Under the pieces are notes generated by a model. The model saw only the letters and a list, made by a program, of their open reading frames with translations. It ran no database searches and was not told the origin of the DNA. Positions 14,501 to 62,642 of a stretch of DNA of 64,000 nt are shown here, piece after piece. Position numbers and translations under genes: made by a program. Location: IMG/VR virus record IMGVR_UViG_3300050128_000053, positions 24,866 through 88,865 of that record. The stretch is one strand, 5' to 3'. Position 1 is the first letter of the stretch. Each line of letters starts with the position of its first letter. Origin of the DNA: a virus.

Positions 14501-16393
14501 GTTGTCATGAACCGAATGGGCCGATTTAAGTTCGGATAGGAATAACCATCCCGATCTCGGTATTCTACGAGCCACCGGTGATTTGGAGTCGAGAGGGCGT
14601 CCATTCGATCGGTCTGCCATCTGGTAAGTGAACCGTCCCAATCGAACACATTGACGGCTGTGTGCTCTTCCCAACGAACCTCGCGCGTCACAGGATCCAT
14701 CACAAGGAACTTGTCGTCGTCCTCGATGTTGTCCCAACGCTTCCAACCAGAAGACGTCAAAGCTTCAGTAGTTTCGTCCTGGCAAAATACTTGGCGGGTT
14801 CCCTCTAATGCCGTCCCCCAAAATCTGTACTTCATCTTGAACCGGATCACCCGAGTCATGTCGTGCGGGTGGTACATAACTCGGGGAAACAGTTCCCCGT
14901 AATGTAAACCGTATTACGGAAAATATTTCCCCTATCTGCACCAGCACCGCTTGCAGGAGTCACCTCCTTCCTGCGTGTGACCCATGTTCCTACAGAGGTG
15001 GTTGGGCACCATACTCGCCCTCTGTAGTGACGAACCGAACGATTCATCCATTTCATGTTCGCTGTCCGACTGTGATGCACCCCAACGGTGCCGTCTCGAC
15101 CTCCAAACTTTCCTCTAGGCGTATCAGAGACCTTTGAAATGCTTCGCTTGCCGAGCATCATGGCAAGCATTTGAAAAGAATCAATCAACCCGAGGTTGTT
15201 CTGGTAAAGACGCTCTCGACCGCCAATGCGTGCTGTCTCCCCATCCCCGTCGAGAAGTGTATTGAAAAGCAGTTCCGCTTGTGGGCGGGTGAGGTTTGTG
15301 AGGAAGCCTGAATCGATTTCCTTTTCCTCATGCAAAACGGCTTGGACCTGACGACCGATTGTTACCGGAAAATACCACTGAAGGAATCCGTCTGACCGCT
15401 CGTAAACAGACCCCTGAAAGTGGTGACAGAGCTTGTCAATACGTTCACAAAAGTCGGGATGAACACGAGGACTTTGCCCAACACAAACAGCCGAAGAATC
15501 AAACCAGCCTTCCGCAGCCACCCAACCCACCAGTTCTACAAACTCATCAGAGTGCTCTGGCATAGTCGGGAAATGCTTTAGTTCGCCGCCCGCCAAGACC
15601 AGAGACCCACCAGTCACCTCATGCAGCTCTGCTGTGGATCGCATCCCCCGGGTTCCACGCTCACCTGAGGTGTCATAGATCCATCGGTGGTCGGCCGTCG
15701 TGGCAGCACTGAAGTTCTTGCTACGCCATTCGTATAGGGGGCCGTCCCAGTCAAAAACGTTGATCCGCCCCACCCGAGACCAAACCAGCTCGTCGGTCTC
15801 GTAGTCAAGCACCAGAGCTTCGTCCCCAACTCTTACCTGATCAGCATTGAGCCAACCACGCTTAGTCAGGATTTCGTTCTCGTCGGCCGGCATGCAGAAA
15901 GCGCTGTTGAGCGGCAGGATGCGGATACGCGCCGGATGCTCATAACCCGCCGGATCGACAAATGATTCTTCGAAAGCCACCTTTACGAACGAGTCGCCTG
16001 ATACAGAAGATTGCTGCATAATTTCCCACATGACAGCGTCTTTGCCTTGGGGCTGATGCTCTTCCCAGATGGTACGCAGAAGCTCGGGGACAATGGCCTC
16101 AGTTGCTTTGGGCGATTTGAAGTAAGTGCCGTTGGTGAGGCAGAAGTTGGTCAAGAAGTCGCTAAAGGCAGCCGACCAGTTGAACGTGAGCTGAGGCTCA
16201 CCGATTTCGCGACGGTAGCTCCAATGATGGCCTAAGTAAAAAGCCCAGTTGCTGGCGTAGCGATTCAAGCGAGGTCCATGAACCTCGATCTAAACTCCTC
16301 ATCCGCTAACTCAACCAGGCCCAAGGGGCTGATGGCAATCGTTAGGTCTGAGGAGGCTGCACGGTAACTGGGTGTCACAAAACTAATGGCCAT
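11551..16393 (-). CDS. Portal protein (SPP1 gp6-like) with three inteins and two 5-nt frame-breaking insertions; about 581 aa mature if repaired
   Basis: Three frame segments: 16393-16292 (MAISF...LVELADEEF), 16286-14880 (EVHGPRLNRY...CFPE) and 14874-11551 (YHPHD...). Portal motifs ENPLGRIPFVHIAN, WGLSDIQDITDLN and ISNTSGVAL. Confidence 0.85.
12478..13473 (-). mobile_element. Intein 3 in portal (332 aa, LAGLIDADG-type)
   Basis: NYYA|CVDETTLALTPEGW...TPNHRW...VWCPTV...YWTGN|SPTT; VGWYITEG and LVDADG. Confidence 0.93.
13699..14784 (-). mobile_element. Intein 2 in portal (362 aa, LAGLIDADG-type)
   Basis: RQVF|CQDETTEALTSSGW...TPNHRW...VWCPTTPSGTW...YWTGN|SFTE; LIGWAVTEG and LLEGDG. Confidence 0.93.
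14892..15896 (-). mobile_element. Intein 1 in portal (335 aa, LAGLIDADG-type endonuclease domain)
   Basis: LNSAF|CMPADENEILTKRGW...TTADHRW...VWCPTT...ITGN|CFPE; LVGWVAAEG and LFNTLLDGDG helices. Confidence 0.92.
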
Positions 16394-16400
16394 TGTGCTT

Positions 16401-17075
16401 TCACCCCCTTCCCGGCTGAGACACGCTTTGCTTCCTAAGCTCACGCACTTTGTTGGCTATTTCCTTGCGCCGTTCCTCCGTGAACGGCCAACAGTTGCTC
16501 TTTCGGATATTGCACAGATCACACGAAGGCATAAGGTTATCAATCGTATGAGTTCCACCTGCTGTCAAGGGCTGATAGTGGTCCCAGTGGAGGTTGTTCG
16601 TCAGGAGCATCTCACAGATGTGACACCGCCCTCCAAACTCTGCAAGACGAAGGTCGAACTGTTCCGCTGAAATGACCTCAACCAAAGTGCCAGCCTTTAT
16701 GGCACGCCGTCTGCTCTCACATCGCTGCGTTGCCTTTCGGCGCTTCTCAGCGATCTCGGGTATTTTGCCTCGCTCAACATGGCGCTTGTAACGCTCTTCT
16801 CGATTGGCCACATGATGGACTCGAAGCCGCTCTTTCGACCACTCAGGGTGATCAATGTGGTATTGGCGTGCCTTAGTGATTTTGGTCGCCGGATCAGCAG
16901 CATAAATCTCTCGTGCTCGCTGATTACGCTTCTCTCGGCGGTTATCGTCAGTAACCTTCACACACAACTTACAACGGGGACGTCGTCCGTCTCTCGATGC
17001 AGAATCCTTGTGGAAATCAGTGAGTGGCTTGGAGATTCCGCACCCCTTGCAAACTTTCACATCAACTGCTGTCAT
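16401..17075 (-). CDS. Free-standing HNH endonuclease with N-terminal zinc finger
   Basis: CKGC...CKLC; CHIC...HWDHYQPLTAGGTHTIDNLMPSCDLCNIRK. Confidence 0.9.
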   Translation of the reverse strand: MTAVDVKVCKGCGISKPLTDFHKDSASRDGRRPRCKLCVKVTDDNRREKRNQRAREIYAADPATKITKARQYHIDHPEWSKERLRVHHVANREERYKRHVERGKIPEIAEKRRKATQRCESRRRAIKAGTLVEVISAEQFDLRLAEFGGRCHICEMLLTNNLHWDHYQPLTAGGTHTIDNLMPSCDLCNIRKSNCWPFTEERRKEIANKVRELRKQSVSQPGRG

Positions 17076-17094
17076 GGCGGCGGTCGTCCGCTTT

Positions 17095-17856
17095 TTACGG
17101 CGTGTCCACTCCGACCTTGGTGAATAGGGCGAACTGAGCAGCACTGATCGCTATGTCTGGGATGCCAGCCGAGGCAAACGCCGATAGATCGGCCGGGTCG
17201 GTGACGTGGGTGGCCACACCGCCCGAGACGAGGAACACCTCGTTGCCCTGCGTGGTGAGGAACATGGTCGGAACCTTTCTGTTTGGGACATGGGTGGGCG
17301 GTGGTGTCGGTGAAGTGAGCCCGAAGAGGGCATCGAAATCGGCCTGAGACCCCACCCAGTGCGAGGCGTCGACCTCCACTGGGATCCCCGGCACACTGAG
17401 TGAATCGGTGTACTGCCAGCAGTCCCCGAAGCCGTAGTCCTTGCCGTAGCTCGCCGGCCAGAGCATGGCCCTGATCCCTGACCGAGGCAGTGTCGAGGCG
17501 CTGCCGTAATCCATCTCTTCATCGGCGCTCAAGTTGAGAGCGACAAGGAAGGCGTTCTGCCACCCACTGTTGGTGCTGGTCTCCGAGTCAAGGATGCGAG
17601 CTTTCGATCCGGCGACTGATTTGAAGTAGGCCGCTTCATCTGAAGCACTGGTGAAATCGGCGAAGTGATAGGCCACGTGGGCGATGTTGTGCGATTCAGC
17701 AAGGGCGGCGGAATCGGAGTAATACGGGTTGGTGTAACCCGTCCCCTGTGTGGCCTTGATGATGAGAGCAAGGACGTTCTCAGAGATCAGAACCCAGTCC
17801 CAATCAGCAGGGTCGCCATTGTCAGAACTGATGTCGATGATGTTTGTTGCCGTCAC
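17095..17856 (-). CDS. GH25 muramidase (endolysin-like)
   Basis: IDISSDNG, IIKATQG, AYHFA, LDSE (DxE) and WQYT...VDAS motifs. Confidence 0.88.
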   Translation of the reverse strand: MTATNIIDISSDNGDPADWDWVLISENVLALIIKATQGTGYTNPYYSDSAALAESHNIAHVAYHFADFTSASDEAAYFKSVAGSKARILDSETSTNSGWQNAFLVALNLSADEEMDYGSASTLPRSGIRAMLWPASYGKDYGFGDCWQYTDSLSVPGIPVEVDASHWVGSQADFDALFGLTSPTPPPTHVPNRKVPTMFLTTQGNEVFLVSGGVATHVTDPADLSAFASAGIPDIAISAAQFALFTKVGVDTP

Positions 17857-17865
17857 ACTCTCACC

Positions 17866-18153
17866 TCAACGGAGTTCTGATCCCCAAGGGGTTCTCGAAA
17901 GATGACCCCGAAACTCGCTGACCACTTTCGAAGAACGAGCTACGACAGGAGATGAACCAGCCGACATCCAGTCCCAGACCATACCTCGTGACTCGATAAG
18001 CGGTTCGTTACCGGGCGCACGATGAAGAAACGTGGGCTGAGCCCGGTCGACACCATGGAACTGCTTGATGTGCTCGTCCATCCCATCAGGGCCATGCTTG
18101 GACCGTGTCTTCCAGCGGCACACCTCACACCGCTGCAAGCGAACTGCCCGCAC
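17866..18153 (-). CDS. Small zinc-finger-like hypothetical protein
   Basis: CEVC...HIKQFH (C2H2-like); translationally coupled to the upstream gene. Confidence 0.45.
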   Translation of the reverse strand: MRAVRLQRCEVCRWKTRSKHGPDGMDEHIKQFHGVDRAQPTFLHRAPGNEPLIESRGMVWDWMSAGSSPVVARSSKVVSEFRGHLSRTPWGSELR

Positions 18154-18773
18154 TATCGCTTCTGAGCGTAGAGCAGGATCTCAAGATTGGCTGCTGCGCC
18201 AACCGATGCCCCAGTCCCAGCGGCAGCAATCACGAAACTCAAAACGTCCCCAGCATGGACCGACAATGCAGGGACCGCCGTGAAGCCGTTGTAATCGGTA
18301 TAGGTGTTGTCGGGGGCCACCAAAGCGTTCAACGAGAACTTGTACATCTGCGGAGGCGCTGTCACCGGAGCTGTGGTGATCTGAGAAGTGGCCTGAGCCG
18401 TCTCATACCCGACCGTACCCGTGGGGCCAGGCAACGGGTAGTTGAGGGCGTAGGGCACGTTCTCAATGACCTCGAGAGCGTTAGTGGTGGTAAAGCTCTC
18501 CGTTCCCGCCCCCAGAATGGTAGGCACATTGGTCGCCGTCCACAGGTTGTACGCCGACACCGAAGAAAGGGCACCACCCTGCTGCGAGGTCGGGAGGTTA
18601 CTGATGTTGACAGTGATGCCGTCGTTGGTGCCCGGGGCGGTGCCCAACCACAACATCATGCCGATGACGTCAAGGTCACATGGAGCGGGATAACGCTGAG
18701 CAAGAGTTCCTACGGACGGAGCCGAAGCAAAACGCTCAACAAGAATCTGGTCTGGGTAAAGGCCGGAAGACAT
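18153..18773 (-). CDS. Hypothetical, probable virion protein
   Basis: AGGAG SD; Thr/Ala/Pro-rich beta-type sequence ending AGDVLSFVIAAAGTG...NLEILL. Confidence 0.55.
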   Translation of the reverse strand: MSSGLYPDQILVERFASAPSVGTLAQRYPAPCDLDVIGMMLWLGTAPGTNDGITVNISNLPTSQQGGALSSVSAYNLWTATNVPTILGAGTESFTTTNALEVIENVPYALNYPLPGPTGTVGYETAQATSQITTAPVTAPPQMYKFSLNALVAPDNTYTDYNGFTAVPALSVHAGDVLSFVIAAAGTGASVGAAANLEILLYAQKR

Positions 18774-18859
18774 CTTTCAAACTCCTTTGGGTTCGATCGG
18801 TTTACCCAGCCTCAAGTCCTGGGGGCACATGAAACGGTTTGTCCAAAGATAAGCGTACC

Positions 18860-19255
18860 TCAGTCGCGTACCCGCTCAGGGCTCTCTCTCTCATACCTCC
18901 CACCAGAGCGCTGCACATCGCCAAAGGTAACCGGCGGCTCGGTGACGCCACCGACGAACTCTTGAAGAACGCTCGGGGCATCGACCCAGGAGGCAGAGCC
19001 CGCATGGGCCCGCTCTTGCATCACCTGATCAGCGTGCTTGTACTGCGAATCCGGATTGTTGTGATTCGGCGATCCCGGCCCCGTCTGATAGCCGTCGCCC
19101 ATGCCCTGTTGGAAATCATCGGGCACGTCGGTGTCGGTCGCAAGACCTTCTTCAAATCGCAGTGGCCCTTTGTTTCCGGCCATGTTCGGACCCATGGTGC
19201 GCTGATACGACTGCGGCGAGCGTTCTGGCGGCACATTGGTTGGGGCAATCGTCAT
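18860..19255 (-). CDS. Conserved phage hypothetical protein
   Basis: GAGGAG SD; GPLRFEEGLATDTDVP and ERAHAGSASWV blocks. Confidence 0.65.
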   Translation of the reverse strand: MTIAPTNVPPERSPQSYQRTMGPNMAGNKGPLRFEEGLATDTDVPDDFQQGMGDGYQTGPGSPNHNNPDSQYKHADQVMQERAHAGSASWVDAPSVLQEFVGGVTEPPVTFGDVQRSGGRYERESPERVRD

Positions 19256-19310
19256 TGAGCACTCCTCGATTAGACCTTTAGGCAGTAGCATAGCCCTAAG
19301 GCCGAGTCGT

Positions 19311-20018
19311 CTAGTGCTCAGCCACCAGAGCCGCCATGAGGGGCTTGTTCCCTACTGCGCAACGGTATCGGTTACACAACCGACGGTTGTCCTCAAAATG
19401 CGGCTGTTCAAAGCGAACAGACTCGTCAGCTGGGTGCCAGAGATGGTAAAGCGGTCCTTGGATGCGGGTCCAATGCGGAGCCAGCGTCTCGAGCGCCATG
19501 TAAAAGGCCCGGTCCTCCTCGCCCCAGCCGATGAAGCGCTCGTCATAACCATGCACGACCTCAAAGGCCACTCGAGATACCACGATCCCACCCCCGACCG
19601 CCGGCTCGGGCGTCTCAACAGAAGGAAAACAATGCTCATACTCAGCAGGAGTGTCCCCGAGCATGTGCGCCTTCGTGCCCCCCTCGGTCAATGAGTAATA
19701 GCGGTCATAGGGCAACACCCACTGAGCCCCCACCTTGCCGAGAAGATCGAAAGCAATTTTCATCTGGCGCAGCGGCACACAGGAGTCGGCATCAACAAAG
19801 ACCAGTACATCTCCTTGCGCTTTCTTCGCTGCGGCGTTACGCGCTGCGGAACGATTGAAGTTCTCGGTCGGAGAATCCTCGATAAGAACCTCGATCTCGC
19901 CTGGCTCCCACCCTTGGAGGAGCTGTCCCCGCACATAATCCAAAGAAGTCGAGCGATAGGCATTCTCTGCCCGGTACGGGATGAGGAACGAAATCACTTG
20001 AGTCCTCTCACAAACCAA
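19311..20018 (-). CDS. Glycosyltransferase (GT2/GT7C-like)
   Basis: FNRSAARN, FVDAD and GYDERFIGWGEED. Confidence 0.88.
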   Translation of the reverse strand: MVCERTQVISFLIPYRAENAYRSTSLDYVRGQLLQGWEPGEIEVLIEDSPTENFNRSAARNAAAKKAQGDVLVFVDADSCVPLRQMKIAFDLLGKVGAQWVLPYDRYYSLTEGGTKAHMLGDTPAEYEHCFPSVETPEPAVGGGIVVSRVAFEVVHGYDERFIGWGEEDRAFYMALETLAPHWTRIQGPLYHLWHPADESVRFEQPHFEDNRRLCNRYRCAVGNKPLMAALVAEH

Positions 20019-20602
20019 GCCGCTGAGTGTTCGTCTTGAATCTGCTGAAAAACCCTGGCGTGCAAGCCAACGTCTTGATTACGACTGTTCGGACGCACGT
20101 GCACTCGATAGACGGCCTTCGGGCACTGGCCGACCGTGGCCCCGGCCAAACGAAGACGAATCCACAGGTCCCAGTCTTCAAGGACTGGCAAGTCCCTAAA
20201 CCCTCCAGCGGCAATAAAGAGATCTCGCCGAACCATACAACCGATGATGAGATGGTTCTTGGCCATGAAGTTCGGTCCCGGCGGAATAAGGACTGGGTAA
20301 TCGTCTTCAACACCATTGATCACACCAAGTGTTGAAGGCTGTCTGATGTCCCCTTCCCCAGCAAGCATCTCCTCGACGTAGCGGGGATCAAGCTCATCAT
20401 CGGCATCAAGGAAAATAAGCCAGTCAGCCCCAACATGAAGCGCTCCAATGTTACGTGCTTGAGAAACTGTAGGTCCCATTCTCGGAGTAACAAGTACGGC
20501 GTGCGCCGTCTGACTCTTTACAGAGTTCACAGCTCTCGCTTCTAGTGGATCCCAAACAGCCCTATCGCCGAAAGATGGAATGATTACTGCGGCAGATTCC
20601 AT
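19994..20602 (-). CDS. Glycosyltransferase family 2
   Basis: ARNIGA, FLDADD and GGF...EDWDLW. Confidence 0.88.
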   Translation of the reverse strand: MESAAVIIPSFGDRAVWDPLEARAVNSVKSQTAHAVLVTPRMGPTVSQARNIGALHVGADWLIFLDADDELDPRYVEEMLAGEGDIRQPSTLGVINGVEDDYPVLIPPGPNFMAKNHLIIGCMVRRDLFIAAGGFRDLPVLEDWDLWIRLRLAGATVGQCPKAVYRVHVRPNSRNQDVGLHARVFQQIQDEHSAAWFVRGLK

Positions 20603-21333
20603 GTCCGCATCTCATCAACGTAGGGGTAAGGCCAGCGCTCGAGGATTTTGTCGGCCGCAAGGATCGACTGCACGTGCTCATTTGAATGACCGAGCCGCCC
20701 AGTGTACCGATTGAACTTTGCTTGTTGGTCCTTCTCGGCCGCATAGCCGTAATGCATGAGGGCCAACAGAGTGGTCGACCCCCAGGACCGCCCCATGACG
20801 TAACTTGGCACCGCCGGCACACCGAAGCCGTGTGAAGGGTACCGGGCACCACTCTCGTACCGAAAGAGGCGAGGAGCGTGAATGGTGCCCCAAAGCCGGT
20901 CCACCCGAACTAAGGGCTGACCTATTTCACTGAACCCAAAAACTTCAGGGATATTAAGATCAATGGCCGATTCAGTAGCCACCTCAATAGCAGATTTCAG
21001 AGCAAGCCGCTGGGATTTGTAATCGATCCCTACAAGCACTTCATCACAATCAATGACGAGCACCCAGTCATTTTGCGGACGAGGGAAAAAGGTCGACTCA
21101 AACATTTTCCACGCCCCTCCTCGAAATAAGCCCTCATTCTCAAGGAAGCTAGGAGTCTGATCATCTCGCTGGAAGACGTTGCACCCGGCATCGTGTGCCA
21201 CCACGGCAGTGTCGTCTTCAGAGCAATCGTCGTAAAAGAACACAGCATCGACCGTCGACACCAAGGCCTCAAGCATCGGCCTCAAGTACCGCTGGGTCTC
21301 ATTACGCCCGACTACGAGCCCGAAAACACTCAC
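20584..21333 (-). CDS. Glycosyltransferase family 2-like
   Basis: RNE..YL, YDDCSEDDT, WVLVIDCDE, PRLFR and HYGY. Confidence 0.85.
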   Translation of the reverse strand: MSVFGLVVGRNETQRYLRPMLEALVSTVDAVFFYDDCSEDDTAVVAHDAGCNVFQRDDQTPSFLENEGLFRGGAWKMFESTFFPRPQNDWVLVIDCDEVLVGIDYKSQRLALKSAIEVATESAIDLNIPEVFGFSEIGQPLVRVDRLWGTIHAPRLFRYESGARYPSHGFGVPAVPSYVMGRSWGSTTLLALMHYGYAAEKDQQAKFNRYTGRLGHSNEHVQSILAADKILERWPYPYVDEMRTWNLPQ

Positions 21334-52964: not shown

Positions 52965-52965
52965 A

Positions 52966-54621: not shown

Positions 54622-54768
54622 ACCCTGTCACTGAAGAAGTGAGGTCGTAGACGCCCTTCCCGGCCCTCGACCGGGGCCTCGCATGTGCTGGCTTAGCGGG
54701 AGTCCGCAAGAAACACCGAACCGAAAGAGAAGCACTGTCGGAAGTGCTCGACCCGAAGGGAGGTGTCA

Positions 54769-55326: not shown

Positions 55327-55340
55327 AGGAAGGTTTTGGG

Positions 55341-55371
55341 AAGGGGCGAGGCCACTCCTACCTCGCCCCTT
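55341..55371. terminator. Hairpin between convergent genes
   Basis: AAGGGGCGAGG-ccactccta-CCTCGCCCCTT inverted repeat. Confidence 0.7.
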
Positions 55372-55422
55372 CACACTCGAGAGCTGCACTCCAACGGGCC
55401 CGCAGCGACCCGTGGGTCAACC

Positions 55423-56620
55423 TCACGATCCTTTGACGTACCCCCGGGTGTAGCGGCGGGGTTCATTGTCGCCCTCGCTCCAGTCGAAACCACCCTCAAC
55501 GTGCGAGAGCAAGGATCGCGCTGAATCGGTGGCATCTTGGATGCGGTTCGACCAGTTTGGGGCGGCCTTCTTGAGTGCTCCATCCGTTGAGCCCTCAAGC
55601 AGCTCCTCGGTGAGGTTTCTTCGGATCCTTCCAAATGGATCAGGCAACAGGGCCACCTCCAGGCGGAACCGGAGCAGGAGCTTCTGTCGTCGTCGGCTCG
55701 GTCTCGACCGGTGCCGCAGTCGTGGTGGGCTCGGGTGTCGTCTCTCCTGGGCCAGGAGGCGGCGCTGGAGCGGCCGTGGTGGTCGTGGCAGTCTCTTGTG
55801 GGCCAGGATCGCTGACAGCCAGGGTCTTGAGGCCTGAGGCCACAGAGGTGATGTTGGCGACAGCGGCCTCAATGGCAGCAGAATCGCCCGCCGCAGCGGC
55901 ATTGGTCAGATTGGTCACCTCAGCCAGGAGGTCGTCGACTGTGGAGGCCACAGCCGTCTCCTCGGCCTGCAGGCTTGCTACAGCTGCGTTCAGATCGTCA
56001 ATAGCTGCCATCAGAAATCTCCATCTCTCGTGGTCTTGTCCGTCCCCGACATTAAAGCGCAAATCGAAGGCAAACAAGAGATCACCCAACATCACTCGTC
56101 CTCAGGCTCGACGTCGGCTGAGAAAGTAGCCAGAGATTTGGCATGGCCACCCCCGTTTTGCGCTCCAGAAAGAGGAGGGTTCGAGAACTGGGCACTGGGG
56201 TCGACCACGGTGCGCCGACCTATACCGAGTTGTGCCCCCCGAGCCACTGTGTCCATTGACAACCTCTGGAACTGCAAGCCGGCAGCGGAACGATCGATGC
56301 CCTCTTGGGCATTGCCGAGCTGACCGGCGGTCGAGGATCGAGCTGGCTCGCTGGGTTCAATCATCCCCACTCCCCACCACGCTATTGGCCGAGTTCATGA
56401 TGGCCGAAGCCAGGCCTTGAGCATCAAATCCACCTGCTGTACCCCGAGCAGCGTGTTTGAACGTGTTGATCCGGCGCAGGTTCCCGAGCGCCTTATCCGC
56501 CGGGTGCTCAGTGCCCCAGGCCGATGAGGTCGGCCCTTCCCACTGGTGGCCCAGGAAACTGCCCCACTGGCGACCGCCGAGCATGGAGTGTTCTGGGGAA
56601 AGAGCCTCTTCTTCAGCCAT
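55423..56620 (-). CDS. Small hypothetical genes (55423-55647, 55640-56011 coiled coil with Pro/Thr tail, 56092-56370, 56357-56620)
   Basis: Packed, co-oriented ORFs. Confidence 0.55.
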
Positions 56621-56657
56621 CGGTCAAATGTTACTTGGCATTTGAGCTGCTCCTCGG

Positions 56658-58151
56658 TCACTGGTGGGGTGCCTCGTGCGGCTTTAGCAACTGCTCGACG
56701 CGCCCCATGAACTCAAGCAGGCCGCCGGTGACGACCGGGCTCCCGTCGAGGTTCCGCCTGAACGGGTCGGGGCTGCCCTCGATGAACACGATCACCTTGC
56801 GCAGCGCTATGTCCACCTCGGTGTACTTGGCCTGCAAGTCGGCCACCGCCGACGTCAACACAGCGAGGCTGGCGATGCGGTTCGCCTTGCGCTTGTCGCG
56901 CCACTCGCGGAGCGGGCGGCGGCCGACGATGGCGGTGACTACCGTGCTCCCTGCGCCGGCAAACACGATCGCCCATATCGGACTCACCGCAGCTTCGCAC
57001 AGTCCCTCGGGGCAAAAATGGTGTGGACCTGCACCGCTATCGCCGTCGTCTCGGCGCTCGTTGGGAACCGGGCCAGCACGAAGGACCACAGCTTGATCTG
57101 CGCCGCTCGCACCGTGTCGCCATTGACGCACTGCGCATACTGCCCGGCTTGCACCGCTGCAGCCTTGTTCCTAGCGCCGTTGACTTGGGTGAGCCCGATC
57201 ACCAATCCGATCGTCAGCAGAATGTCGAAGATGACGACGCCGATAATGACTCGCATCCGGGTCCGATGTGAGGCGAGCGTTTCGGTCAGATGATCCACTG
57301 CGTCGGTGAGGTCTTGCGCTGTTTTCAGAATCCGCTCAGGCATCGACCCCCTCCTCGATCGGTTCTACAAACGTCCTCAGCAACTCGGCCAGAGCAACGG
57401 CAGAAGCGCGCAAGTCGGGCACCATCTCGGCCACCTCGCGCATTTCGTGACGCTCGTCCGCCCACTGGTCACTTCGTAGTGAACGCAGCACAGTTCCTCG
57501 GTGCGAATGTCGTGTCGACCTGGGTCAGGAAACGTGTCACGGCAGCACGGATCGCCGCATTGGGCGATCCACCCAGCTGCTCGATGCCGATGATCTCGGT
57601 GTGCCACAGCCCCTTGTCATCGGAGCGGCTGACGTTATCAGCGTGGCACTGCGCGAGCAGCACTTGATGATTCGTCTGCGTCGCCGCCTTCGCTTGACTG
57701 GCGGCGACGTTCGACTGGACCGACACGTGGATGAATCCGATCGTCAGCAGAATGTCGAGCACCAAGACGGCGGCCGTCACGATGAGCCGGTTGCGATTGC
57801 GCCGCTCGCTCTCTTTCACTAGGTCGATGCGCTCCGTCAGGTCATCGAAGGACCCGGCGAGGACGCGCGCCGCTTCGAGGACGCGCGCCGCTTCATCGGC
57901 TGCCGTGTGCACCACGCGATCCGCTTGCGCAGCGGCAACCGACAGCCTCTCACTCTCCTCGCTCACGGTGCCCCTCTCTCATCGATCACCCTATTGAGCC
58001 GCTTCATGACGATCTGCGCCTGATTCACCAGCACGGTCGCCTTGGCGATCAGTTCCTTGGAGTCCATCGTCGCAAGTGGTTTGTCCAAATCGGTCACTGT
58101 CCTCGGTCTGCGCCAACGCATCAAGCCAGAATAGCGATAAAGAAACTCCAC
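56658..58151 (-). CDS. Membrane/lysis-type cassette (56658-56987; paralogs 56984-57343 and 57469-57966; 57963-58151)
   Basis: Single-TM proteins; the two paralogs share DILLTIG, QC...D..R, LW and FAPRxC. Confidence 0.6.
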
Positions 58152-58166
58152 GCATTTACTCCCCCG

Positions 58167-58520
58167 TCACCACGAGACACCTCCAAGTCCTAATGGGTCA
58201 CCTGCATTGGTGTTGCGGTCGGATCCTTGGTAATGACCTTGTGACCTTGAGTAGTCGACTCGATCCTCTCCGTGCATCTGGGGGATACCAGGGATGCGCC
58301 CAGACGGCATGCGGGTGATCCCGAACACCTGCATGACCGACCACTGACGTTGTGCGTATGTCGGGTAACCGAATCGTGGCGGCAGGTATCGGATCTGTGG
58401 CAGCGGGGGGCGAAGGGCTCGCAGTTGATCGTCCGACATCGACGTGGCCGCATTGAAAGCGTCGTCGGCCTGTCGGGCGTAGTTGTTGATCCAGGGGTGT
58501 GGTGGGATCTGGACCTGCAC
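58167..58520 (-). CDS. Hypothetical protein
   Basis: RPPLPQIRYLPPRFGY block. Confidence 0.55.
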   Translation of the reverse strand: MQVQIPPHPWINNYARQADDAFNAATSMSDDQLRALRPPLPQIRYLPPRFGYPTYAQRQWSVMQVFGITRMPSGRIPGIPQMHGEDRVDYSRSQGHYQGSDRNTNAGDPLGLGGVSW

Positions 58521-58720
58521 AAGGCAAGACTACCGCCTGGACTCCAGTGCTCTTCGGGCAAGCGATGCTGCCTTGGGAGAAGCAAGAAGACCCGCTATCT
58601 GCAAAAGAGTAGCTCGGTACCGATCTCGTTCCTTCTCGGCGTGATCAGCTCTGCGCTTAGCACAGTCGAGATCAGCTTTTAATGTCTCAGTAGTTCGCCA
58701 TAATCAGGTATAATAGAAGA

Positions 58721-58930
58721 GTGCCTGTGACGTTCAGCGACGACGAGTTCGACTTCGTCTACGACGTCTTTGAACTGCTCATGTCGCCGTTTGCCAATAA
58801 CGAACGCCTGGCCGACGCACTCCGTGGCGAAAACGACGTCTGGAAGATCCTCAAGGAGAAGCAGGAAGCTAGACGTACGGCTGGCGCTTGCGGGGAACGC
58901 CCTGAACTCGAGGGTTCCCAGATACCGTAG
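58721..58930 (+). CDS. Small leaderless hypothetical protein
   Basis: TATAAT (58709), 6 nt, GTG. Confidence 0.55.
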   Translation: MPVTFSDDEFDFVYDVFELLMSPFANNERLADALRGENDVWKILKEKQEARRTAGACGERPELEGSQIP

Positions 58931-59840
58931 GAGCCGATCGCTCTATGCGCTTGCCGGTAATCCAGGTGCGGGCTTGCACCACATTACGGTGGACACCTAG
59001 AGCGTTTCCGGCTTCGCTGTAGCCATTCGAGAACTGCTCGTATCGAGAAGGTTTACCAAAGTAAGCGGCAGGTTCGCCGTTCTTCTTGAGCTTCCTCGAA
59101 GCCGGAAGATCAGCACTACTGATCCCACGACCTGTGTACTCCCACGGCCACTGCTCGTTCTGAGCGATATCGTGAGCCCGCTTGTCGATGGTTGCGAGTG
59201 CAGGACGGACTCTTCCCTCCCGAGTCGTAATCGTGTCCGCTTCTGGGTCGTCAATAGCGTGTGTGAAAGAGTTCGTCTTCGGGTTCGACTGCGGCGGCAT
59301 TACGTCGTCCGGATGCTCGCCCCGGCGGATCCGATAGGCCTTGAGCAGTCCACTGTCGGTCGCTGTCGAAAGGGACATCCCTTTCAGAAGAGCCGATGCC
59401 TCAGGAGTGCGCTTGTGCATCGGACCGGCCGGAGTGGCCGTTGCCGAGTGGACGAGAACGTCCCAGTCCTTTTGACGCAGTTTTCCTATTTCGTGGAAAG
59501 CATCGATGTTGTTGCGCTCCCAGTCCATGCTCGGGCTCACCGCGGCAATTTCACCGGCTGCGTGAAGGGGAGAGATTCTGAGAAGGCGGGCACCTTTCGC
59601 AGCGGCCTCGTGGACTTTGGGATACCAAATCCTTCCCTCTTCGTGTTCTTCAGGAGTACCGAAATCGTGCACATTGAGTACGTGACGAACGGACAAGCGG
59701 AACTGGCTCGGGTTCATGAGATCGTGCTTTGGGAAGTCAGCAGCACGGTACTTCACTGCCCGAGGAACGTCCTCACCACCCGCTTGACCTTCATAGTCGT
59801 CACCAAAGACGTCGTAATCACCTGACGGTCTAGCCGCCAT
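58869..59840 (-). CDS. Conserved phage protein (DUF7178-like, possible helical DNA-glycosylase-like fold)
   Basis: GRIWY, IAAVSP..DWERN, KTNSF, TIDKRAHDIA and VQARTW. Confidence 0.6.
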   Translation of the reverse strand: MAARPSGDYDVFGDDYEGQAGGEDVPRAVKYRAADFPKHDLMNPSQFRLSVRHVLNVHDFGTPEEHEEGRIWYPKVHEAAAKGARLLRISPLHAAGEIAAVSPSMDWERNNIDAFHEIGKLRQKDWDVLVHSATATPAGPMHKRTPEASALLKGMSLSTATDSGLLKAYRIRRGEHPDDVMPPQSNPKTNSFTHAIDDPEADTITTREGRVRPALATIDKRAHDIAQNEQWPWEYTGRGISSADLPASRKLKKNGEPAAYFGKPSRYEQFSNGYSEAGNALGVHRNVVQARTWITGKRIERSAPTVSGNPRVQGVPRKRQPYV

Positions 59841-60063
59841 CTGAAGACCTCCGGTCGTTGAAGAGAGAGCTGATGCGGTACTGCACCGGCCCCTTCTTCT
59901 GCGGATTAGCACCGAGAACGTGTTGGGGAGCAAGGGTGAGAAGGCCGCTTCTCCGCAGCTCTTGGTCGTACCGAGGCTCATCACCACTGGGGAAGTGCGT
60001 GAGGTACCCAGGATTATCACTGAGGTCTTTGGCGTACGAGTCTGGCTTCGGGACGTCAACCAT
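59830..60063 (-). CDS. Hypothetical protein
   Basis: Overlaps both neighbours in the operon. Confidence 0.5.
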   Translation of the reverse strand: MVDVPKPDSYAKDLSDNPGYLTHFPSGDEPRYDQELRRSGLLTLAPQHVLGANPQKKGPVQYRISSLFNDRRSSDGG

Positions 60064-61150
60064 TGGTCGCTCCACTCACGAAAGTCGACAACTTGTGGCC
60101 ACAGACGCCCTTCCCGTATTTACGGAGAGCACCGTTAGCCATCGTATCAGTCCCCTCGACCTGGAACATCTTCTTTGAGTTGTGCACAACAAATCCATTA
60201 GCCAAGAAGTTATGAGGCTCCGTAACCACCTCGATGTCATAAGTCATTTCAAATCCAAAATGAACAATCGAAAGTATTTTCTCACTGGTTACTTTGGCGA
60301 TTACCCTTGAAGGGTTTTCAAGACCATGTATGCGCCCGTGTTCCCGGTGCGTAATGACTTTTAGATTCGCAGGCTCATTGTTCGTGTGGTCTTCATCGAG
60401 GTGGTGCACGGTCCAAACGCTCGGGTCAATAAACCGCAGATTATCGGTCTCACCAATACGAATCATTTGAATAAAATCTTCGTAATCAAGACCATTTAGT
60501 GTAGCTTCTGCCACCAAACGATGTTGGTTAACCACAAACTTCTCACCTGTAGCCTTATTTGGCTTCCAGTAGTTGGCATAAGGGTGGTTTTTCATACCAA
60601 ATACTCTCTTGTATCGCAGATTGGGTTTCCACGGGGTTCCCGTTGCCTTCTCGCCCTGGACATGCACATGCCGACCGGCATCTAGATTGCCCAATACTGT
60701 CCAGCCAGAAGGGGTGGAAAATGGATGATCTGTTGTTGCACGAATAGAGCGCCCAGTCTCGGTAGTGATCACAAATGTCTCTTTGCGTCCACTCGACCAA
60801 GCACTACTCAGTTCGACAAGTCGAACAGCACCATCCCGAGCCTGTTGAACAAATGTAGGGATGTCCAAGTCCCAGGAACGCCCACTGCGACCATTGTTGA
60901 GGCCGTTGAAACGATGTACAACATCTCGAAGTTTCATTGGACTGCTCTTACCGCCCCGATTTACAATAATCAGGGCATCGCCCTGAAGACACTGACAACC
61001 GTGACAGTGTGCCTCGAGCAGCTCAACGGGGCCAGGGCCACTTCCAGCGCCCCCCAGCGTCGGCACAGCAGCCAGAGGCCCCGACGCCGCCGGATTGATC
61101 TTGATGGCCGCCAGGCCAAGTTGGTGCACCGCTGAGACCCCATCAGCCAT
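60056..61150 (-). CDS. DUF5679-like zinc-ribbon protein (93 aa after splicing) containing an intein
   Basis: Exteins join to EAHCHGCQ|SKKMFQVEGTDTMANGALRKYGKGVCGHKLSTFV. Confidence 0.75.
   Translation of the reverse strand: MADGVSAVHQLGLAAIKINPAASGPLAAVPTLGGAGSGPGPVELLEAHCHGCQCLQGDALIIVNRGGKSSPMKLRDVVHRFNGLNNGRSGRSWDLDIPTFVQQARDGAVRLVELSSAWSSGRKETFVITTETGRSIRATTDHPFSTPSGWTVLGNLDAGRHVHVQGEKATGTPWKPNLRYKRVFGMKNHPYANYWKPNKATGEKFVVNQHRLVAEATLNGLDYEDFIQMIRIGETDNLRFIDPSVWTVHHLDEDHTNNEPANLKVITHREHGRIHGLENPSRVIAKVTSEKILSIVHFGFEMTYDIEVVTEPHNFLANGFVVHNSKKMFQVEGTDTMANGALRKYGKGVCGHKLSTFVSGATNG
60179..60991 (-). mobile_element. Intein with HNH homing endonuclease (271 aa)
   Basis: CLQGDALI...IRATTDHPF...VHHLDEDHTNNEPANL...TYDIEV...HNFLANGFVVHN|S. 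Confidence 0.93.
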
Positions 61151-61185
61151 GTCATTGGCCGTGTAGAGCCGCTTCGGTTTCCGTC

Positions 61186-62100
61186 TCACGGCGCAGGAGG
61201 GGGATTGACCGATCCATCGTGAGCACCGCTTGTCCAAGCAGCCAGGGGTTCGGTGTCGCGCATCTCTCGCATCATGGCATTCCAGTGCGATGCACGGCCC
61301 GTCGGCTTGCCCGAGCCCGTCCCGTGGCCACCACTGGGGCTGTCGCCAGGGGTCGACCCGTCGATGAGTTGATCGGACTCGTTCTGTGGAGCAGCATTGC
61401 TGCCGCCCATAGCACGATCTCCACCGTCGAGCGCACTGGTGACATCGGTCTGATCAGCCCATAGGCACTGACGAGCCTCGGCAATGAGCCCGTCAGGGCC
61501 CTGCTGCCAAACAGCAGGCGTCCACGGCGTCTGTGGGACAGCATCGCCTGAGTACTGCTCAGTAGGAAGCATTACCTTCTCCGATCGTTGATCGGCTCGT
61601 GGTCGTGGAAATCGATCCCACAGTTGCGGCAGCGGTAATGATTTACTTGACCGAGAGTCCCAAGTGTTTGACCCCAGCCACCACATGCTGGACAATCTTC
61701 GCCGAGATCATCGGGATCGTAAGCCGTCACGTATCACGTTCCCACTCTTGGATCGGAGGATTGTCGTGCTTGCCGGCGGCCGCCGCCGCTGAAGCAAAAG
61801 CAGCATTGTTGAGCATCCGAGCCTCCTCTTGAAGCTGCTCGGGACTTTTGGTCCAGCACTGAGGACGCCAGGGTCCACCAGTCCCTTCGAAGGGGTAGTG
61901 CATGGCTCCTTCGCCCTGATCGATGTCTTCGTTGGGCATCATGGTCATGACTGTCTCCTCGATCCCTCGTCGAAGTGCTCTCGACGCGTCTTTGGTCCAT
62001 CGTAGTCTGTGAACGAGCGATTACAGCCGTCACTGTCTCGAGGCGGCTCGTCGTACCCGGGTTCCTGCCAGTTAACAGACCCACCAGTACCATCGGCCAT
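61186..62100 (-). CDS. Four small coupled genes (61186-61572, 61572-61730 Zn ribbon, 61727-61948, 61945-62100)
   Basis: TAATG/ATGA/GTGA overlaps; CPAC...CRNC in the 52-aa gene. Confidence 0.6.
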
Positions 62101-62642
62101 TAGCCCTGCACCGACATCTTGCGACGGGGCGGCATTCCATACGTGGGCCGCAAAAGAGCAAGTTGTGACGCCCTGTGTTGATCTATTGTCAGGACGGAAG
62201 TAGAACCGCGTGGGGCGAGCTTGCCCTCAACCGTCGGCGTCGGCTGGAAGAACTGCAAAGACGGTGCTGCACGAAGTCCGGTAGTCGCTTCGGCGACCAA
62301 ACCACGCAAGGGGTTCTGCTGTTCAGGCCAGAGGTAGTCCCCCGGGTCAATCCTCTCGCCGAGGTGTACTCCTCTTTGGTAACCACGCTGGTTGATACGG
62401 GACTTGAGGGAATCGAAGAGGCGGTCCCCGCGTCGACTTGTAATTGTCCCGGGTCAAAGGTAGCCATCGGGATAGCTGGCTTCTGGTGTCCTGTTGTACA
62501 TCATCCGCCGGGCATCCAACACTGATCTAACCCACGGTTGGGGAGGCATTGATCCAACAGTTGCGCTTGGATTCATTGCTCCTGGGGAACCAGGAACATA
62601 GGTCTGTGAAAACCCAACACCTCCAGTGTTACTTCCGGCCAC
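62100..62642 (-). CDS. Conserved phage protein interrupted by an in-frame TGA within a probable 6-nt insertion (62451-62456)
   Basis: One frame reads MAGSNT...YPDGYL*PGTITSRRGDRLFDSLKSRINQRGYQRGVHLGERIDPGDYLWP...; both halves are otherwise intact and the stop overlaps the next ATG. Confidence 0.75.

What the first reader, a model, noticed from the sequence alone, without database searches (positions are those of the whole stretch)
14850..62456. Candidate micro-bypass system: three 5-6 nt insertions in conserved genes, each beside a homing endonuclease
Seen: three otherwise intact genes/segments break at tiny gaps. On the minus strand these are GAG GAG TTT [AGATC] GAG GTT (portal, 16291-16287), CCC GAG [TTATG] TAC CAC (portal, 14879-14875) and TAC CTT [TGACCC] GGG ACA (62456-62451). 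In each case the first codon of the gap is a stop or a codon usually rare in high-GC hosts (AGA, TTA, TGA) and begins in or just after a TT run. Two of the three have a clear hairpin at the gap. Two gaps lie about 110 and about 175 nt past the end of a free-standing HNH gene; the third lies 12 nt after an endonuclease-bearing intein. Established: the T4 gene 60 50-nt ribosomal bypass is linked to the MobA HNH nuclease and disrupts its target, and a 10-nt bypass has been proposed in a Streptomyces phage terminase. Inference: these are minimal self-immunity insertions that destroy the nuclease target and are removed by ribosome hopping or RNA micro-excision. Portal is essential, so simple pseudogenisation is unlikely in a viable phage. 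The take-off and landing codons do not match, so the mechanism would differ from T4. The uninterrupted motifs (DEEFEVHG, FPE[FY]HPHD, DGYLGTI) are my recollection of homologs and need confirming.
Basis: partly seen in the sequence, partly recalled or inferred. Interest (0 to 1): 0.92.

Follow-up and report, generated by a model that had tools for sequence, protein, structure and literature searches.

The report
Nuclease-linked micro-gaps in phage genes
An uncultured peat-soil phage carries three real 5-6 base inserts inside conserved genes, each beside a selfish nuclease element, and comparison with relatives suggests that ribosomes hop over them, a miniature of the phage T4 gene 60 bypass.

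Summary
The portal gene (minus strand, 16393-11551) is broken by 5 extra bases at 16291-16287 and at 14879-14875. A small conserved gene (62642-62100) carries 6 extra in-frame bases, TGA CCC, at 62456-62451. Homologs read straight across all three sites. Independent DNA assemblies from two other studies hold one or both portal inserts, and contigs from an RNA library keep both.

Across about 130 related portal loci I found ten further gap instances of 5-10 nt. All 13 instances begin with a stop codon, TTA or AGA. The gaps track mobile nucleases. A homologous HNH gene upstream always goes with a gap at DEEF|EVHG. An endonuclease VII-type gene upstream goes with a gap at LNR(Y)|. An intein at SAF|C goes with a gap 3-4 codons later in 4 of 7 loci.

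Gap lengths fall in every class mod 3, so only skipping the whole insert explains all of them. Ribosomal hopping is the best reading (about 0.65) but is untested. In this window the take-off and landing triplets are not cognate.

This is a new variant of a known kind (T4 gene 60/MobA, phiHau3). Earlier notes of this scan describe similar portal gaps on other DNA; I did not test those.

The parts
16401..17144 (-). Free-standing HNH endonuclease gene directly upstream of the portal gene
   Evidence: Pfam PF01844 at E 7e-6 and phrog_1035 at 2.8e-28. Homologs of 64% and 50% identity sit at the same place in L009 and L103/L104.
16292..16393 (-). Portal segment 1: 34 codons, ATG 16393 to the take-off codon TTT 16294-16292
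   Evidence: Translation. Matches residues 3-35 of the pSt2308 portal. Under purifying selection: 16 synonymous and 0 non-synonymous codon differences against L009 over 21 codons.
16287..16291 (-). Gap 1: 5 nt, AGATC; the A-site codon would be AGA
   Evidence: Adjacent tblastn segments with query gap 0, subject gap 5 nt and a frame change. Present in contigs of DNA runs X2 and X4 and RNA-library run X10.
15897..16286 (-). Portal segment 2: N-extein, EVHGPRLNRY... to ...LPLNSAF
   Evidence: 84% identical to L003.
14892..15896 (-). Intein 1: 335 aa, C...GN, followed by Cys
   Evidence: Absent from 51 of 52 IMG/VR homolog loci. A profile of 5 related inteins hits solved inteins (6zgq, E 4e-5). 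The endonuclease domain is inferred only from the size and from LAGLIDADG-like motifs that I recalled.
14880..14891 (-). Four C-extein codons, TGT TTC CCC GAG (CFPE); GAG is the take-off codon
14875..14879 (-). Gap 2: 5 nt, TTATG; the A-site codon would be TTA. It also creates an ATG in the downstream frame
   Evidence: The 9 closest relatives read [CV]FPEYHPHDM. Present in contigs of DNA run X2 and RNA-library run X10. A related strain in X2 lacks both the intein and the gap (loose end at 14875).
14847..14887 (-). 12-bp RNA hairpin whose 5' arm contains gap 2
   Evidence: Minimum free energy -28.7 kcal/mol, z -3.38, 1 of 200 shuffles as good. Not found at the equivalent gaps of L037 and L112.
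11551..14874 (-). Portal segment 3: YHPHD... to the stop codon, including intein 2 (13699-14784) and intein 3 (12478-13473)
   Evidence: Pfam SPP1_portal and phrog_64 portal matches.
62629..63183 (-). Second free-standing HNH endonuclease gene
   Evidence: phrog_2255 HNH endonuclease at 4.7e-32. No Pfam HNH match at E 0.01.
62457..62642 (-). Conserved gene of unknown function, part 1: GTG 62642 to the take-off codon CTT 62459-62457
   Evidence: Aligns with the G001 and GiJojo gp168 homologs. The start overlaps the end of the HNH gene.
62451..62456 (-). Gap 3: 6 nt in frame, TGA CCC
   Evidence: Absent from 40 of 40 IMG/VR homolog loci, from G001 and from 6 GenBank Streptomyces phage records.
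62100..62450 (-). Conserved gene, part 2: GTITSRR... to TAA

Best explanation
The three inserts are short coding gaps that belong to homing-element cassettes. Two cassettes are free-standing HNH genes and one is an intein. The mRNA keeps the gaps.

Proposed mechanism. The ribosome translates up to the last sense codon (UUU, GAG or CUU). It stalls because the A site holds a rare codon (AGA, UUA) or a stop codon (UGA). The peptidyl-tRNA then leaves its codon and the mRNA slides 5-6 nt. Decoding resumes at the next codon (GAG, UAC or GGG). The products are the conserved ...ADEEF-EVHG..., ...CFPE-YHPHD... and ...DGYL-GTI... proteins.

At the DNA level the extra bases probably alter the nuclease's target in the element-bearing genome, as shown for MobA and the T4 gene 60 gap.

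Shown here: the inserts are real, homologs lack them, they are linked to homing elements, they start with a stop or rare codon, and the coding sequence on both sides is under selection.

Inferred: the hopping itself and the protective role.
For: 1. Exact removal restores conserved, gap-free alignments.

2. Recurrence. I found 13 gap instances, representing 12 different inserts, in the window and in L009, L010, L011/L113, L037 (two), L103/L104, L112 (two), L131 and L193.

3. All 13 start with TGA (5), TAG (3), TAA (1), TTA (3) or AGA (1). Eight of them shift the frame, where an immediate stop or rare codon is not expected by chance (5 of 64 codons each).

4. Gap lengths are 5, 5, 5, 5, 6, 6, 6, 7, 8, 8, 9, 9 and 10 nt. 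Every class mod 3 is represented, so neither one kind of frameshift nor readthrough fits all of them.

5. Take-off codon and landing triplet share 23 of 39 positions against 9.4 expected by permutation; 0 of 200,000 permutations reach that. Three pairs are identical: UUC/UUC in L104, GAA/GAA in L131 and CCG/CCG in L193.

6. Link to homing elements.
- HNH homologs directly upstream of portal occur only in the window, L009 and L103/L104. All of these have a gap at DEEF|EVHG.
- Endonuclease VII-type genes directly upstream occur only in L010, L011, L112 and L113. All of these have a gap at LNR(Y)|.
- Gaps at CFP(E)| occur only in loci with the intein: 4 of 7 intein-bearing loci and none of the intein-less ones.

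7. The 34-codon 5' piece stays under purifying selection in gap-bearing lineages, for example 16 synonymous and 0 non-synonymous differences between the window and L009. The roughly 1100-codon downstream frame stays open.

8. The inserts are present in independent DNA assemblies and are retained in RNA-library contigs.

9. TTA and AGA are the rarest and fourth rarest sense codons in this genome. TGA is its main stop codon, 55 of 89 ORFs, so the code is not reassigned.

10. Precedents. The phiHau3 10-nt UUA gaps have a junction peptide detected by mass spectrometry (PMC10732093: abstract, section 19 and passages read). [quoted passage not shown]
Against: - There is no protein-level or ribosome-level evidence. 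The genome is an uncultured IMG/VR fragment, estimated 63% complete, so its viability is unproven.
- In this window the take-off and landing triplets share only 3 of 9 positions, about chance: UUU/AUC, GAG/AUG and CUU/CCC.
- No RNA structure is shared across gaps. Only site 2 (z -3.4) and weakly site 1 fold better than shuffles, and 9 other gap regions have z between -1.3 and +1.3.
- No Shine-Dalgarno-like element is shared across gaps, judged by eye only.
- The take-off/landing similarity could also be a relic of origin by local duplication.
- Two intein-bearing loci have no gap (L148/L194 and L196), and two gaps have no recognisable nuclease gene upstream (L037a, L131).
- The cultured relative GiJojo shows no gap.
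- The RNA-library contigs may derive from DNA carry-over, and contigs hide rare variants.
Confidence: 0.65

Rival explanations
1. Conventional recoding that keeps the inserted bases as codons. This would be a -1 (or +2) frameshift at the two portal gaps and TGA readthrough at the third, giving proteins with about two extra residues at each site.
For: - Both portal gaps need the same -1 shift.
- Site 2 has a T_TTC_CCC heptamer three codons upstream.
- Site 3 is in frame, and by my recollection UGA followed by C is a weak terminator in E. coli.
Against: - At site 1 the target frame has TAG inside the gap, and no later codon allows re-pairing after a -1 slip.
- Relatives at the same junctions have 6-, 7-, 8-, 9- and 10-nt inserts. 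These would need several different mechanisms.
- The junction motifs are invariant in length across about 130 loci.
- In L112 the zero frame stops at once (TAA), and a -1 slip from GAG onto TGA has no pairing.
Confidence: 0.1
2. The genes are truly split at the gaps. The upstream piece terminates, and the downstream piece is made by termination-reinitiation or independent initiation, as in nuclease-split 'genes in pieces'.
For: - Gap 2 creates an ATG exactly before YHPHD, and the upstream frame stops 20 nt later.
- Gaps at site 1 in the window and in L009 end in ATC, 5-6 nt after GAGGAG.
- Homing nucleases are known to split genes: T4 39/60 and Aeh1 nrdA (bioRxiv 10.1101/2022.08.31.505936, section 12).
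Against: - No start codon stands at the resume point of gap 3, nor in L010, L011/L112a, L037a, L104, L112b, L131 or L193.
- A free 34-residue N-terminal portal peptide and a free 62-residue fragment would have to assemble.
- Gaps that start with TTA or AGA would add several out-of-frame residues before termination.
Confidence: 0.08
3. The gapped alleles are non-functional damage left by homing elements. They persist because the elements spread faster than selection removes them, or because co-infecting intact phages supply portal in trans.
For: - The genome is an uncultured fragment.
- A related strain without intein or gap co-occurs in the same sample (loose end at 14875 in X2).
- The genome is crowded with mobile elements: 3 inteins, 2 HNH genes and a likely group I intron.
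Against: - Both sides of every gap stay open and conserved, with almost only synonymous change in the 5' piece between gap-bearing lineages whose HNH genes have diverged to 64% identity. Against the 50%-identity lineage L104 the 5' piece differs at 9 non-synonymous codons.
- The first codon of every gap is a stop or rare codon, which random damage would not give.
- The same strain is assembled from several studies, with run years 2019 to 2025.
Confidence: 0.1
4. The extra bases are removed from the RNA (micro-excision or editing) or from the DNA before packaging.
For: None directly. It would also give exact removal.
Against: - Contigs of RNA-library run X10 span both portal gaps with no gap and no other letters (14653-15010 and 16238-16454).
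- No joint or deletion was reported in any of the 4 runs (tables 4 and 5).
- I know of no mechanism for excising 5-10 nt of varied sequence.
Confidence: 0.03

Closest known systems
Phage T4 gene 60 50-nt translational bypass carried with the MobA HNH homing endonuclease (bioRxiv 10.1101/2022.08.31.505936, abstract and sections 12 and 16 read; PMC5009743, passages read; Bonocora et al. 2011, recalled)
   Same: - A non-coding insert in a conserved gene sits next to an HNH homing nuclease gene.
- The insert starts with a stop or hungry codon.
- Some relatives keep the gap after losing the nuclease, as L131 and L037a may have done.
- Protection of the element-bearing genome from its own nuclease is the proposed role.
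   Different: - The gaps are 5-10 nt, not 50.
- No conserved take-off stem-loop or in-gap Shine-Dalgarno element was found.
- The codon pairs in this window are not cognate.
- The target gene is portal or a small unknown gene, not topoisomerase, and the gene is not also split by the nuclease gene.
- Three kinds of element are involved: HNH, endonuclease VII-type and intein.
UUA-led 10-nt (and 7-nt) coding gaps in the large terminase gene of Streptomyces phage phiHau3 and two prophages (PMC10732093: abstract, section 19 and passages read; its supplements are closed)
   Same: - Short frame-breaking inserts occur in an essential actinophage structural or packaging gene.
- The flanks are contiguous in homologs.
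- A rare UUA stands at the 5' end, as in gap 2, L010 and L104.
- An upstream Shine-Dalgarno-like element and a stem-loop are proposed as signals.
   Different: - No nuclease link is described there (0 occurrences of 'HNH' or 'homing').
- A regulatory role through bldA tRNA is proposed there.
- Most gaps here start with stop codons, and they are as short as 5 nt.
- I could not see that paper's take-off and landing codons because its supplements are closed.
Synthetic 'stop-hops' and hungry-codon hops in E. coli (Weiss et al. 1987 and Gallant et al., as cited in passages of PMC5009743 and PMC10732093)
   Same: Peptidyl-tRNA hops over a stop or slow codon to a nearby triplet. The in-frame 6- and 9-nt forms (gap 3, L009, L037, L193) look like this.
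   Different: - Those are engineered or low-level events with matched codons.
- The 2016 review states that no natural in-frame stop hop was known.
- The codon pairs in this window are not matched.
Translational bypassing elements (byps) in Magnusiomyces capitatus mitochondria (as cited in PMC5009743 and PMC10732093 passages)
   Same: [quoted passage not shown]
   Different: - By my recollection those are 27-55 nt mobile GC-rich elements in a mitochondrion.
- They have no nuclease partner.
HNH insertion upstream of the tape-measure gene of Cluster O mycobacteriophages (PMC4351075, passages read)
   Same: An actinophage HNH gene inserted just upstream of a structural gene is associated with non-canonical translation of that gene, supported by mass spectrometry. 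Bypassing was raised as a possibility.
   Different: The anomaly there is at the start of the gene (no start codon). It is not a short internal insert.

Membership tests
Programmed translational bypass (gene 60 type) | A coding gap absent from homologs, with flanks that are contiguous in homologs | tested here: met
Programmed translational bypass (gene 60 type) | A stop or slow-to-decode codon in the A site at take-off | tested here: met
   AGA, TTA and TGA in the window. All 13 instances overall meet this.
Programmed translational bypass (gene 60 type) | Matched (cognate or wobble) take-off and landing codons | tested here: not met
   In the window: UUU/AUC, GAG/AUG and CUU/CCC, 3 of 9 positions identical. 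Across the family the similarity is strong, 23 of 39, and 3 pairs are identical.
Programmed translational bypass (gene 60 type) | A take-off stem-loop or other conserved RNA signals | tested here: inconclusive
   Site 2 has a 12-bp hairpin (z -3.4) and site 1 a weak one. The other gaps have none.
Programmed translational bypass (gene 60 type) | A junction peptide or reporter product that shows a single polypeptide across the gap | not testable with these tools
   This needs mass spectrometry or reporter assays.
Homing-endonuclease plus bypass cassette (MobA type) | The gap co-occurs with an adjacent homing nuclease gene across relatives | tested here: met
   HNH with site B, and endonuclease VII-type with sites C and D, in every locus that has the nuclease. 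Exceptions without a nuclease: L037a and L131.
Homing-endonuclease plus bypass cassette (MobA type) | The gap protects the element-bearing DNA from cleavage by its nuclease | not testable with these tools
   This needs cleavage assays on alleles with and without the gap.
phiHau3-type UUA-led short bypass | UUA as the first codon of the gap, in a host that decodes UUA poorly | tested here: inconclusive
   Gap 2 starts with TTA, and TTA is the rarest sense codon (3.0 per 1000). However, it is used 73 times, including once in portal segment 1. The host is unknown. Gaps 1 and 3 do not start with TTA.
-1 programmed ribosomal frameshift | A slippery X XXY YYZ heptamer inside the overlap of the two frames | tested here: not met
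   None at site 1. Site 2 has T_TTC_CCC, but the product would carry 2 extra residues in an invariant motif.
Stop-codon readthrough or reassigned TGA | The stop is read as an amino acid, and homologs tolerate residues there | tested here: inconclusive
   This applies to gap 3 only. None of 40 homolog loci has extra residues there. TGA ends 55 of 89 ORFs, so it is not reassigned. Low-level readthrough cannot be excluded.
Intein with homing endonuclease | An in-frame insertion at a conserved site with Cys at its first position, a terminal Asn and a +1 nucleophile, a Hint fold and an endonuclease domain | tested here: inconclusive
   The insertion and its terminal residues are met. The profile hits solved inteins over the N-terminal Hint part only. 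Pfam finds nothing. The endonuclease domain is inferred from the 335-aa size.

The most novel reading that the evidence does not exclude
These are the shortest natural programmed ribosome hops (5-6 nt), and they work without a cognate landing codon. They belong to a widespread and so far undescribed class of 'homing element plus micro-gap' cassettes in soil, peat and freshwater phages. At least three unrelated kinds of selfish element (HNH, endonuclease VII-type and inteins) use such cassettes to mark or protect the genomes that carry them. The class would include the first natural in-frame stop-hops.
Probability: 0.5. Interest if true: 0.9.

Novelty: new variant of a known kind. Interest (0 to 1): 0.8.

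Why it matters
Programmed translational bypass is known from very few natural systems: T4 gene 60 and its relatives, one yeast mitochondrion, and a candidate in phiHau3. The 2016 recoding review states that no natural in-frame stop hop was known.

This finding offers a family of very short gaps with natural sequence variation: 5-10 nt, a stop or rare codon at the start, and cognate or non-cognate landing triplets. They sit in an essential, easily assayed gene and are tied to identifiable nucleases.

That makes two questions directly testable. First, what is the minimum a ribosome needs in order to hop? Second, do homing elements routinely buy self-immunity with inserts that only translation can repair?

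There is also a practical consequence for annotation. Gene callers split or truncate such genes, so portal and other core genes of uncultured phages are mis-annotated.

Tried and rejected
- Megablast of both regions against GenBank phages found nothing.
- A single-protein scan of IMG/VR with the portal-side HNH found no relative. The profile scan then did.
- The scan with the second HNH gave one distant, AT-rich locus of no use (L101).
- Distant HNH loci L105-L108 have no portal next to them.
- Whole-genome six-frame comparisons found no further gaps in G000 beyond sites 1 and 3; site 2 is hidden by the intein. I compared G000 with the 101-kb relative G001 and with GiJojo. Neither G001 nor GiJojo shows a gap.
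- A weak event at window 46195 was dropped. The two ORFs there are in different frames and the match is only 30% identical.
- A universal hairpin was rejected.
- A universal Shine-Dalgarno-like element was rejected by eye only. GAGGAG or GGTGGAG abuts the take-off codon at sites A and B only, and it is encoded by residues conserved in all homologs.
- Pfam and NCBIfam do not recognise the intein.
- G000 has no tRNA genes, so a phage-borne suppressor or rare-codon tRNA was not found in this fragment.
- Rfam finds nothing at gathering score in the window.
- The contig of RNA run X15 ends 4 nt past gap 2 and does not bridge it. Stretches without RNA cover say nothing.
- The intein-linked 4-nt candidate in L214 could not be checked because no family was found for its host gene.
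- Upstream ORFs of the IMG/VR loci were clustered and inspected only by eye for nuclease motifs. Nuclease families unrelated to my tblastn queries could have been missed.
- Overlap between the IMG/VR and JGI locus sets was not removed.

Full report
**What the window is.** The window is 64 kb of an 88,865-bp IMG/VR virus record. CheckV estimates it as 63% complete and IMG/VR classes it as linear. Its nearest named relatives are the roughly 113-kb Streptomyces phages BRock, pSt2308, GiJojo, LuckySocke and Alone3, whose portal N-terminal part is 53-55% identical. Index words of the portal region occur in 24 listed runs from 23 peat and permafrost studies, and 7 of these runs hold at least half of the words. 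The record has no tRNA genes. TGA is its commonest stop codon, ending 55 of 89 ORFs.

**The observation.** On the minus strand, ATG 16393 opens a frame that ends ...LVELADEEF and then reads RSRFMDLA-stop. The frame one base upstream reads EVHGPRLNRYASNW... from 16286. That frame runs through a 335-residue insertion (C...GN, 15896-14892) and then reads CFPE followed by LCTTRTT-stop. A third frame, again one base upstream, reads YHPHDMTRVIRFK... and stays open to 11551. It carries two more insertions of the same type.

In the pSt2308 portal the corresponding stretches read SDEEFEMHGPRLNRY and CFPTWHPHD without interruption. tblastn of that protein on the window gives adjacent segments with query gap 0, subject gap 5 nt and a frame change at site 1.

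The third site is a single in-frame TGA in YPDGYL*PGTITSRR, where GiJojo gp168 reads YPDGYLGSITDRR. An alignment with the closest long relative, G001, shows that this gene starts at GTG 62642, overlapping the end of the HNH gene, and that G001 lacks exactly six bases here.

The two free-standing nuclease genes are confirmed: 16401-17144 (Pfam HNH, phrog_1035) and 62629-63183 (phrog_2255).

**The inserts are real.** In Logan contigs of run X2, from a different study, stretches 14567-15153 and 15913-16675 match with no differences and no gaps. Run X4, from a third study, covers 16172-16322 with no gaps.

Contigs of the metatranscriptome run X10 cover 14653-15010 and 16238-16454, also with no gaps. 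The RNA library therefore holds the gap-containing form. DNA carry-over cannot be excluded, and contigs hide rare variants.

A contig of a related strain in X2 joins ...CCCGA directly to G-TAC. That strain has neither intein nor gap, so gapless alleles co-occur in the same sample.

**Relatives.** I examined three sets of loci:
- 52 IMG/VR portal loci;
- 2 more reached with a profile of the HNH protein (L103 and L104);
- 80 JGI metagenome loci. Some of these duplicate IMG/VR contigs, and I did not remove the overlap.

Of the 52 IMG/VR loci, 48 read the N-terminal region without a break. Of the 80 metagenome loci, 75 give one uninterrupted match.

The exceptions are further micro-inserts in the same part of the gene. 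Each is written as take-off codon, insert in brackets, resume codon:

| Locus | Insert | Length | Note |
|---|---|---|---|
| L009 | TTC[TGAATC]GAG | 6 nt | Same junction as site 1 |
| L103/L104 | TTC[TTACCTTC]GAA | 8 nt | Same junction as site 1 |
| L131 | GAA[TAGTGAA]GTT | 7 nt | One codon after site 1 |
| L010 | CGA[TTACCCCAGC]TAT | 10 nt | |
| L011, L113 | TAC[TGAAC]GCC | 5 nt | |
| L112 (a) | TAT[TGAAC]GCC | 5 nt | Same insert as L011 |
| L037 (a) | CTT[TGACCGCCC]GCC | 9 nt | |
| L037 (b) | CCG[TAGCTG]GAG | 6 nt | After an intein at the site of intein 1 |
| L112 (b) | GAG[TAACTAAG]TAC | 8 nt | Same junction as site 2 |
| L193 | CCG[TAGGTACCG]GAG | 9 nt | After an intein at the site of intein 1 |

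With the window's three gaps this makes 13 instances and 12 different inserts. L192 has an in-frame TTACCT at the same place with no stop codon. I left it out as ambiguous.

For the third gene, all 40 IMG/VR homolog loci are uninterrupted.

**Regularities.**

First, every instance starts with TGA (5), TAG (3), TAA (1), TTA (3) or AGA (1). For the eight frame-breaking instances this is not a detection artefact. The chance is 5 in 64 per insert. In this genome TTA is the rarest sense codon (3.0 per 1000) and AGA the fourth rarest (5.3 per 1000).

Second, the lengths are 5, 5, 5, 5, 6, 6, 6, 7, 8, 8, 9, 9 and 10 nt. No single frameshift direction, and no readthrough, can serve all of them. Skipping the whole insert restores the invariant motif in every case.

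Third, the take-off codon and the triplet just before the resume codon are alike. They share 23 of 39 positions against 9.4 expected when partners are permuted, and none of 200,000 permutations reaches that value. The earlier 12-pair test gave 20 of 36, P about 1e-5. Three pairs are identical: UUC/UUC, GAA/GAA and CCG/CCG.

Fourth, the gaps follow homing elements:
- A homolog of the window's HNH gene lies directly upstream of portal only in L009 (64% identity) and L103/L104 (50%). These are exactly the loci with a gap at DEEF|EVHG.
- An endonuclease VII-type gene (Pfam PF02945, E 3.7e-25 for L010) lies directly upstream only in L010, L011, L112 and L113. These are exactly the loci with a gap at LNR|Y or LNRY|A.
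- An intein at SAF|C is present in the window, L112, L037, L193, L192, L148/L194 and L196. Four of these seven have a stop-led or frame-breaking gap 3-4 codons later. No intein-less locus has one.
- There are exceptions. L037a and L131 have gaps with no recognisable nuclease gene upstream. This parallels MobA elements that lost the nuclease and kept the bypass (bioRxiv 10.1101/2022.08.31.505936, section 12).
- None of the 40 homolog loci of the third gene has a homolog of the second HNH or the insert.

**Selection.** Between gap-bearing lineages the 21 codons compared in the 5' piece differ almost only synonymously. The counts are 16 synonymous and 0 non-synonymous for window against L009, 16 and 0 against L010, and 17 and 0 against L011. 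The more distant L104 differs from the window at 9 synonymous and 9 non-synonymous codons. The downstream frame stays open for about 1100 codons. Both pieces therefore behave as translated sequence in lineages whose nuclease genes have diverged to 50-64% identity.

**Mechanism.** The best-supported reading is a translational hop. The ribosome pauses with a stop or rare codon in the A site. The peptidyl-tRNA releases its codon, the mRNA slides by the length of the insert, and decoding resumes.

This is the logic of T4 gene 60/MobA and of the phiHau3 terminase gaps. For phiHau3, a junction peptide was found in E. coli with a UAA variant (PMC10732093; abstract, section 19 and passages read). I could not compare that system's take-off and landing codons because its supplements are closed.

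The case is weaker for this particular window in four ways:
- The three codon pairs (UUU/AUC, GAG/AUG, CUU/CCC) share only 3 of 9 positions.
- No RNA structure is common to the gaps. Site 2 has a striking 12-bp hairpin that the insert itself completes (z -3.4). Site 1 has a weak 7-bp one. Nine other gap regions give z between -1.3 and +1.3.
- GAGGAG directly before the take-off codon of site 1 could act like the Shine-Dalgarno element of the RF2 frameshift site (recalled). However, it encodes residues conserved in all homologs.
- Nothing here shows the protein.

**Rivals.**
- Conventional frameshifting plus readthrough would add residues to invariant motifs. It lacks slippery sites at site 1 and in L112, and it would need several mechanisms across relatives.
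- A true split with reinitiation is conceivable for gap 2, where the insert creates ATG before YHPHD. Most gaps, however, have no start codon at the resume point.
- Dead alleles maintained by element drive or by helpers are hard to square with the conserved first codon and the purifying selection. They cannot be excluded for an uncultured fragment.
- RNA or DNA removal is disfavoured by the RNA-library contigs and by the absence of joints.

**Novelty.** Full-text searches were:
- 'translational bypass', 'Streptomyces phage', 'terminase';
- 'translational bypassing', 'homing endonuclease', 'phage';
- 'portal', 'bypassing', 'coding gap'.

They found the phiHau3 work, the gene 60/MobA work and a Corndog tape-measure case. 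None describes portal-gene micro-gaps or gaps of 5-9 nt linked to homing elements. Subscription journals are not covered by these searches.

Earlier notes of this scan describe similar portal, FEN and iscU gaps on other genomes. I did not test those notes, and they are not independent evidence.

This window adds four things: three gaps in one genome, a link to an intein, 5-nt gaps with non-cognate triplets, and gap-containing contigs in an RNA library.

**Limits.** The endonuclease domain of the inteins therefore rests on their size and on motifs I recalled. Nuclease detection in relatives used tblastn with five query proteins, and only three upstream ORFs were checked against Pfam. All read evidence comes from contigs.

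Noticed in passing
window 9625-9848 (-): Rfam Intron_gpI (RF00028) matches at 40.3 bits, below the gathering score of 50, with E 1e-8 in a local search. The whole-window search at gathering score found nothing.
   Followed up: partly
window 12478-15896 (-): Three related inteins of 335, 362 and 332 aa sit in one portal gene. All end in GN and are 32-41% identical to each other. Pfam and NCBIfam do not recognise them. A profile of five such inteins hits solved inteins only over the first ~80-100 profile positions.
   Followed up: partly
L214:2296-2311: In an unrelated 110-kb IMG/VR contig, a related intein is followed by three codons (TYD) and then TGA. The open frame continues 4 nt further on, which would be a GAT-to-GAC hop over TGAC. 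The host gene has no Pfam family and no homologs were compared.
   Followed up: partly
L192:1189-1200: A portal allele with the intein has an in-frame TTACCT after CFP, reading CFPLPRWHPHD where relatives read CFPEWHPHD. It could be a TTA-led in-frame hop or simply two extra residues.
   Followed up: no
window 16272-16289 (-), and the same place in relatives: The codons for EVHGP form a near-perfect DNA palindrome, GGTCCATGGACC in L003. It lies between the gap sites linked to the HNH gene and those linked to the endonuclease VII-type gene. It may be the nuclease target; this was not tested.
   Followed up: no
L189 (GiJojo 5.7-18.9 kb): The cultured relative GiJojo encodes about 30 tRNAs. They include Arg(tct), which reads AGA, but no Leu(taa). 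The window's genome fragment has no tRNA genes.
   Followed up: no
GenBank actinophages, e.g. Mycobacterium phages Minerva, Optimus, Wanda and Baka: Homologs of the portal-side HNH, about 30% identical, sit directly upstream of lysin A in cluster-mates and in other actinophages. I did not check whether the downstream genes there carry micro-gaps. A cultured example would prove viability.
   Followed up: no
window 62454-62462 (-) and L037:2974-2982: Gap 3 and gap L037a share the context CTT TGA CC. From memory, this is the same core as the E. coli prfB +1 frameshift site (CUU UGA C). Here, however, the +1 frame is not the conserved one.
   Followed up: partly
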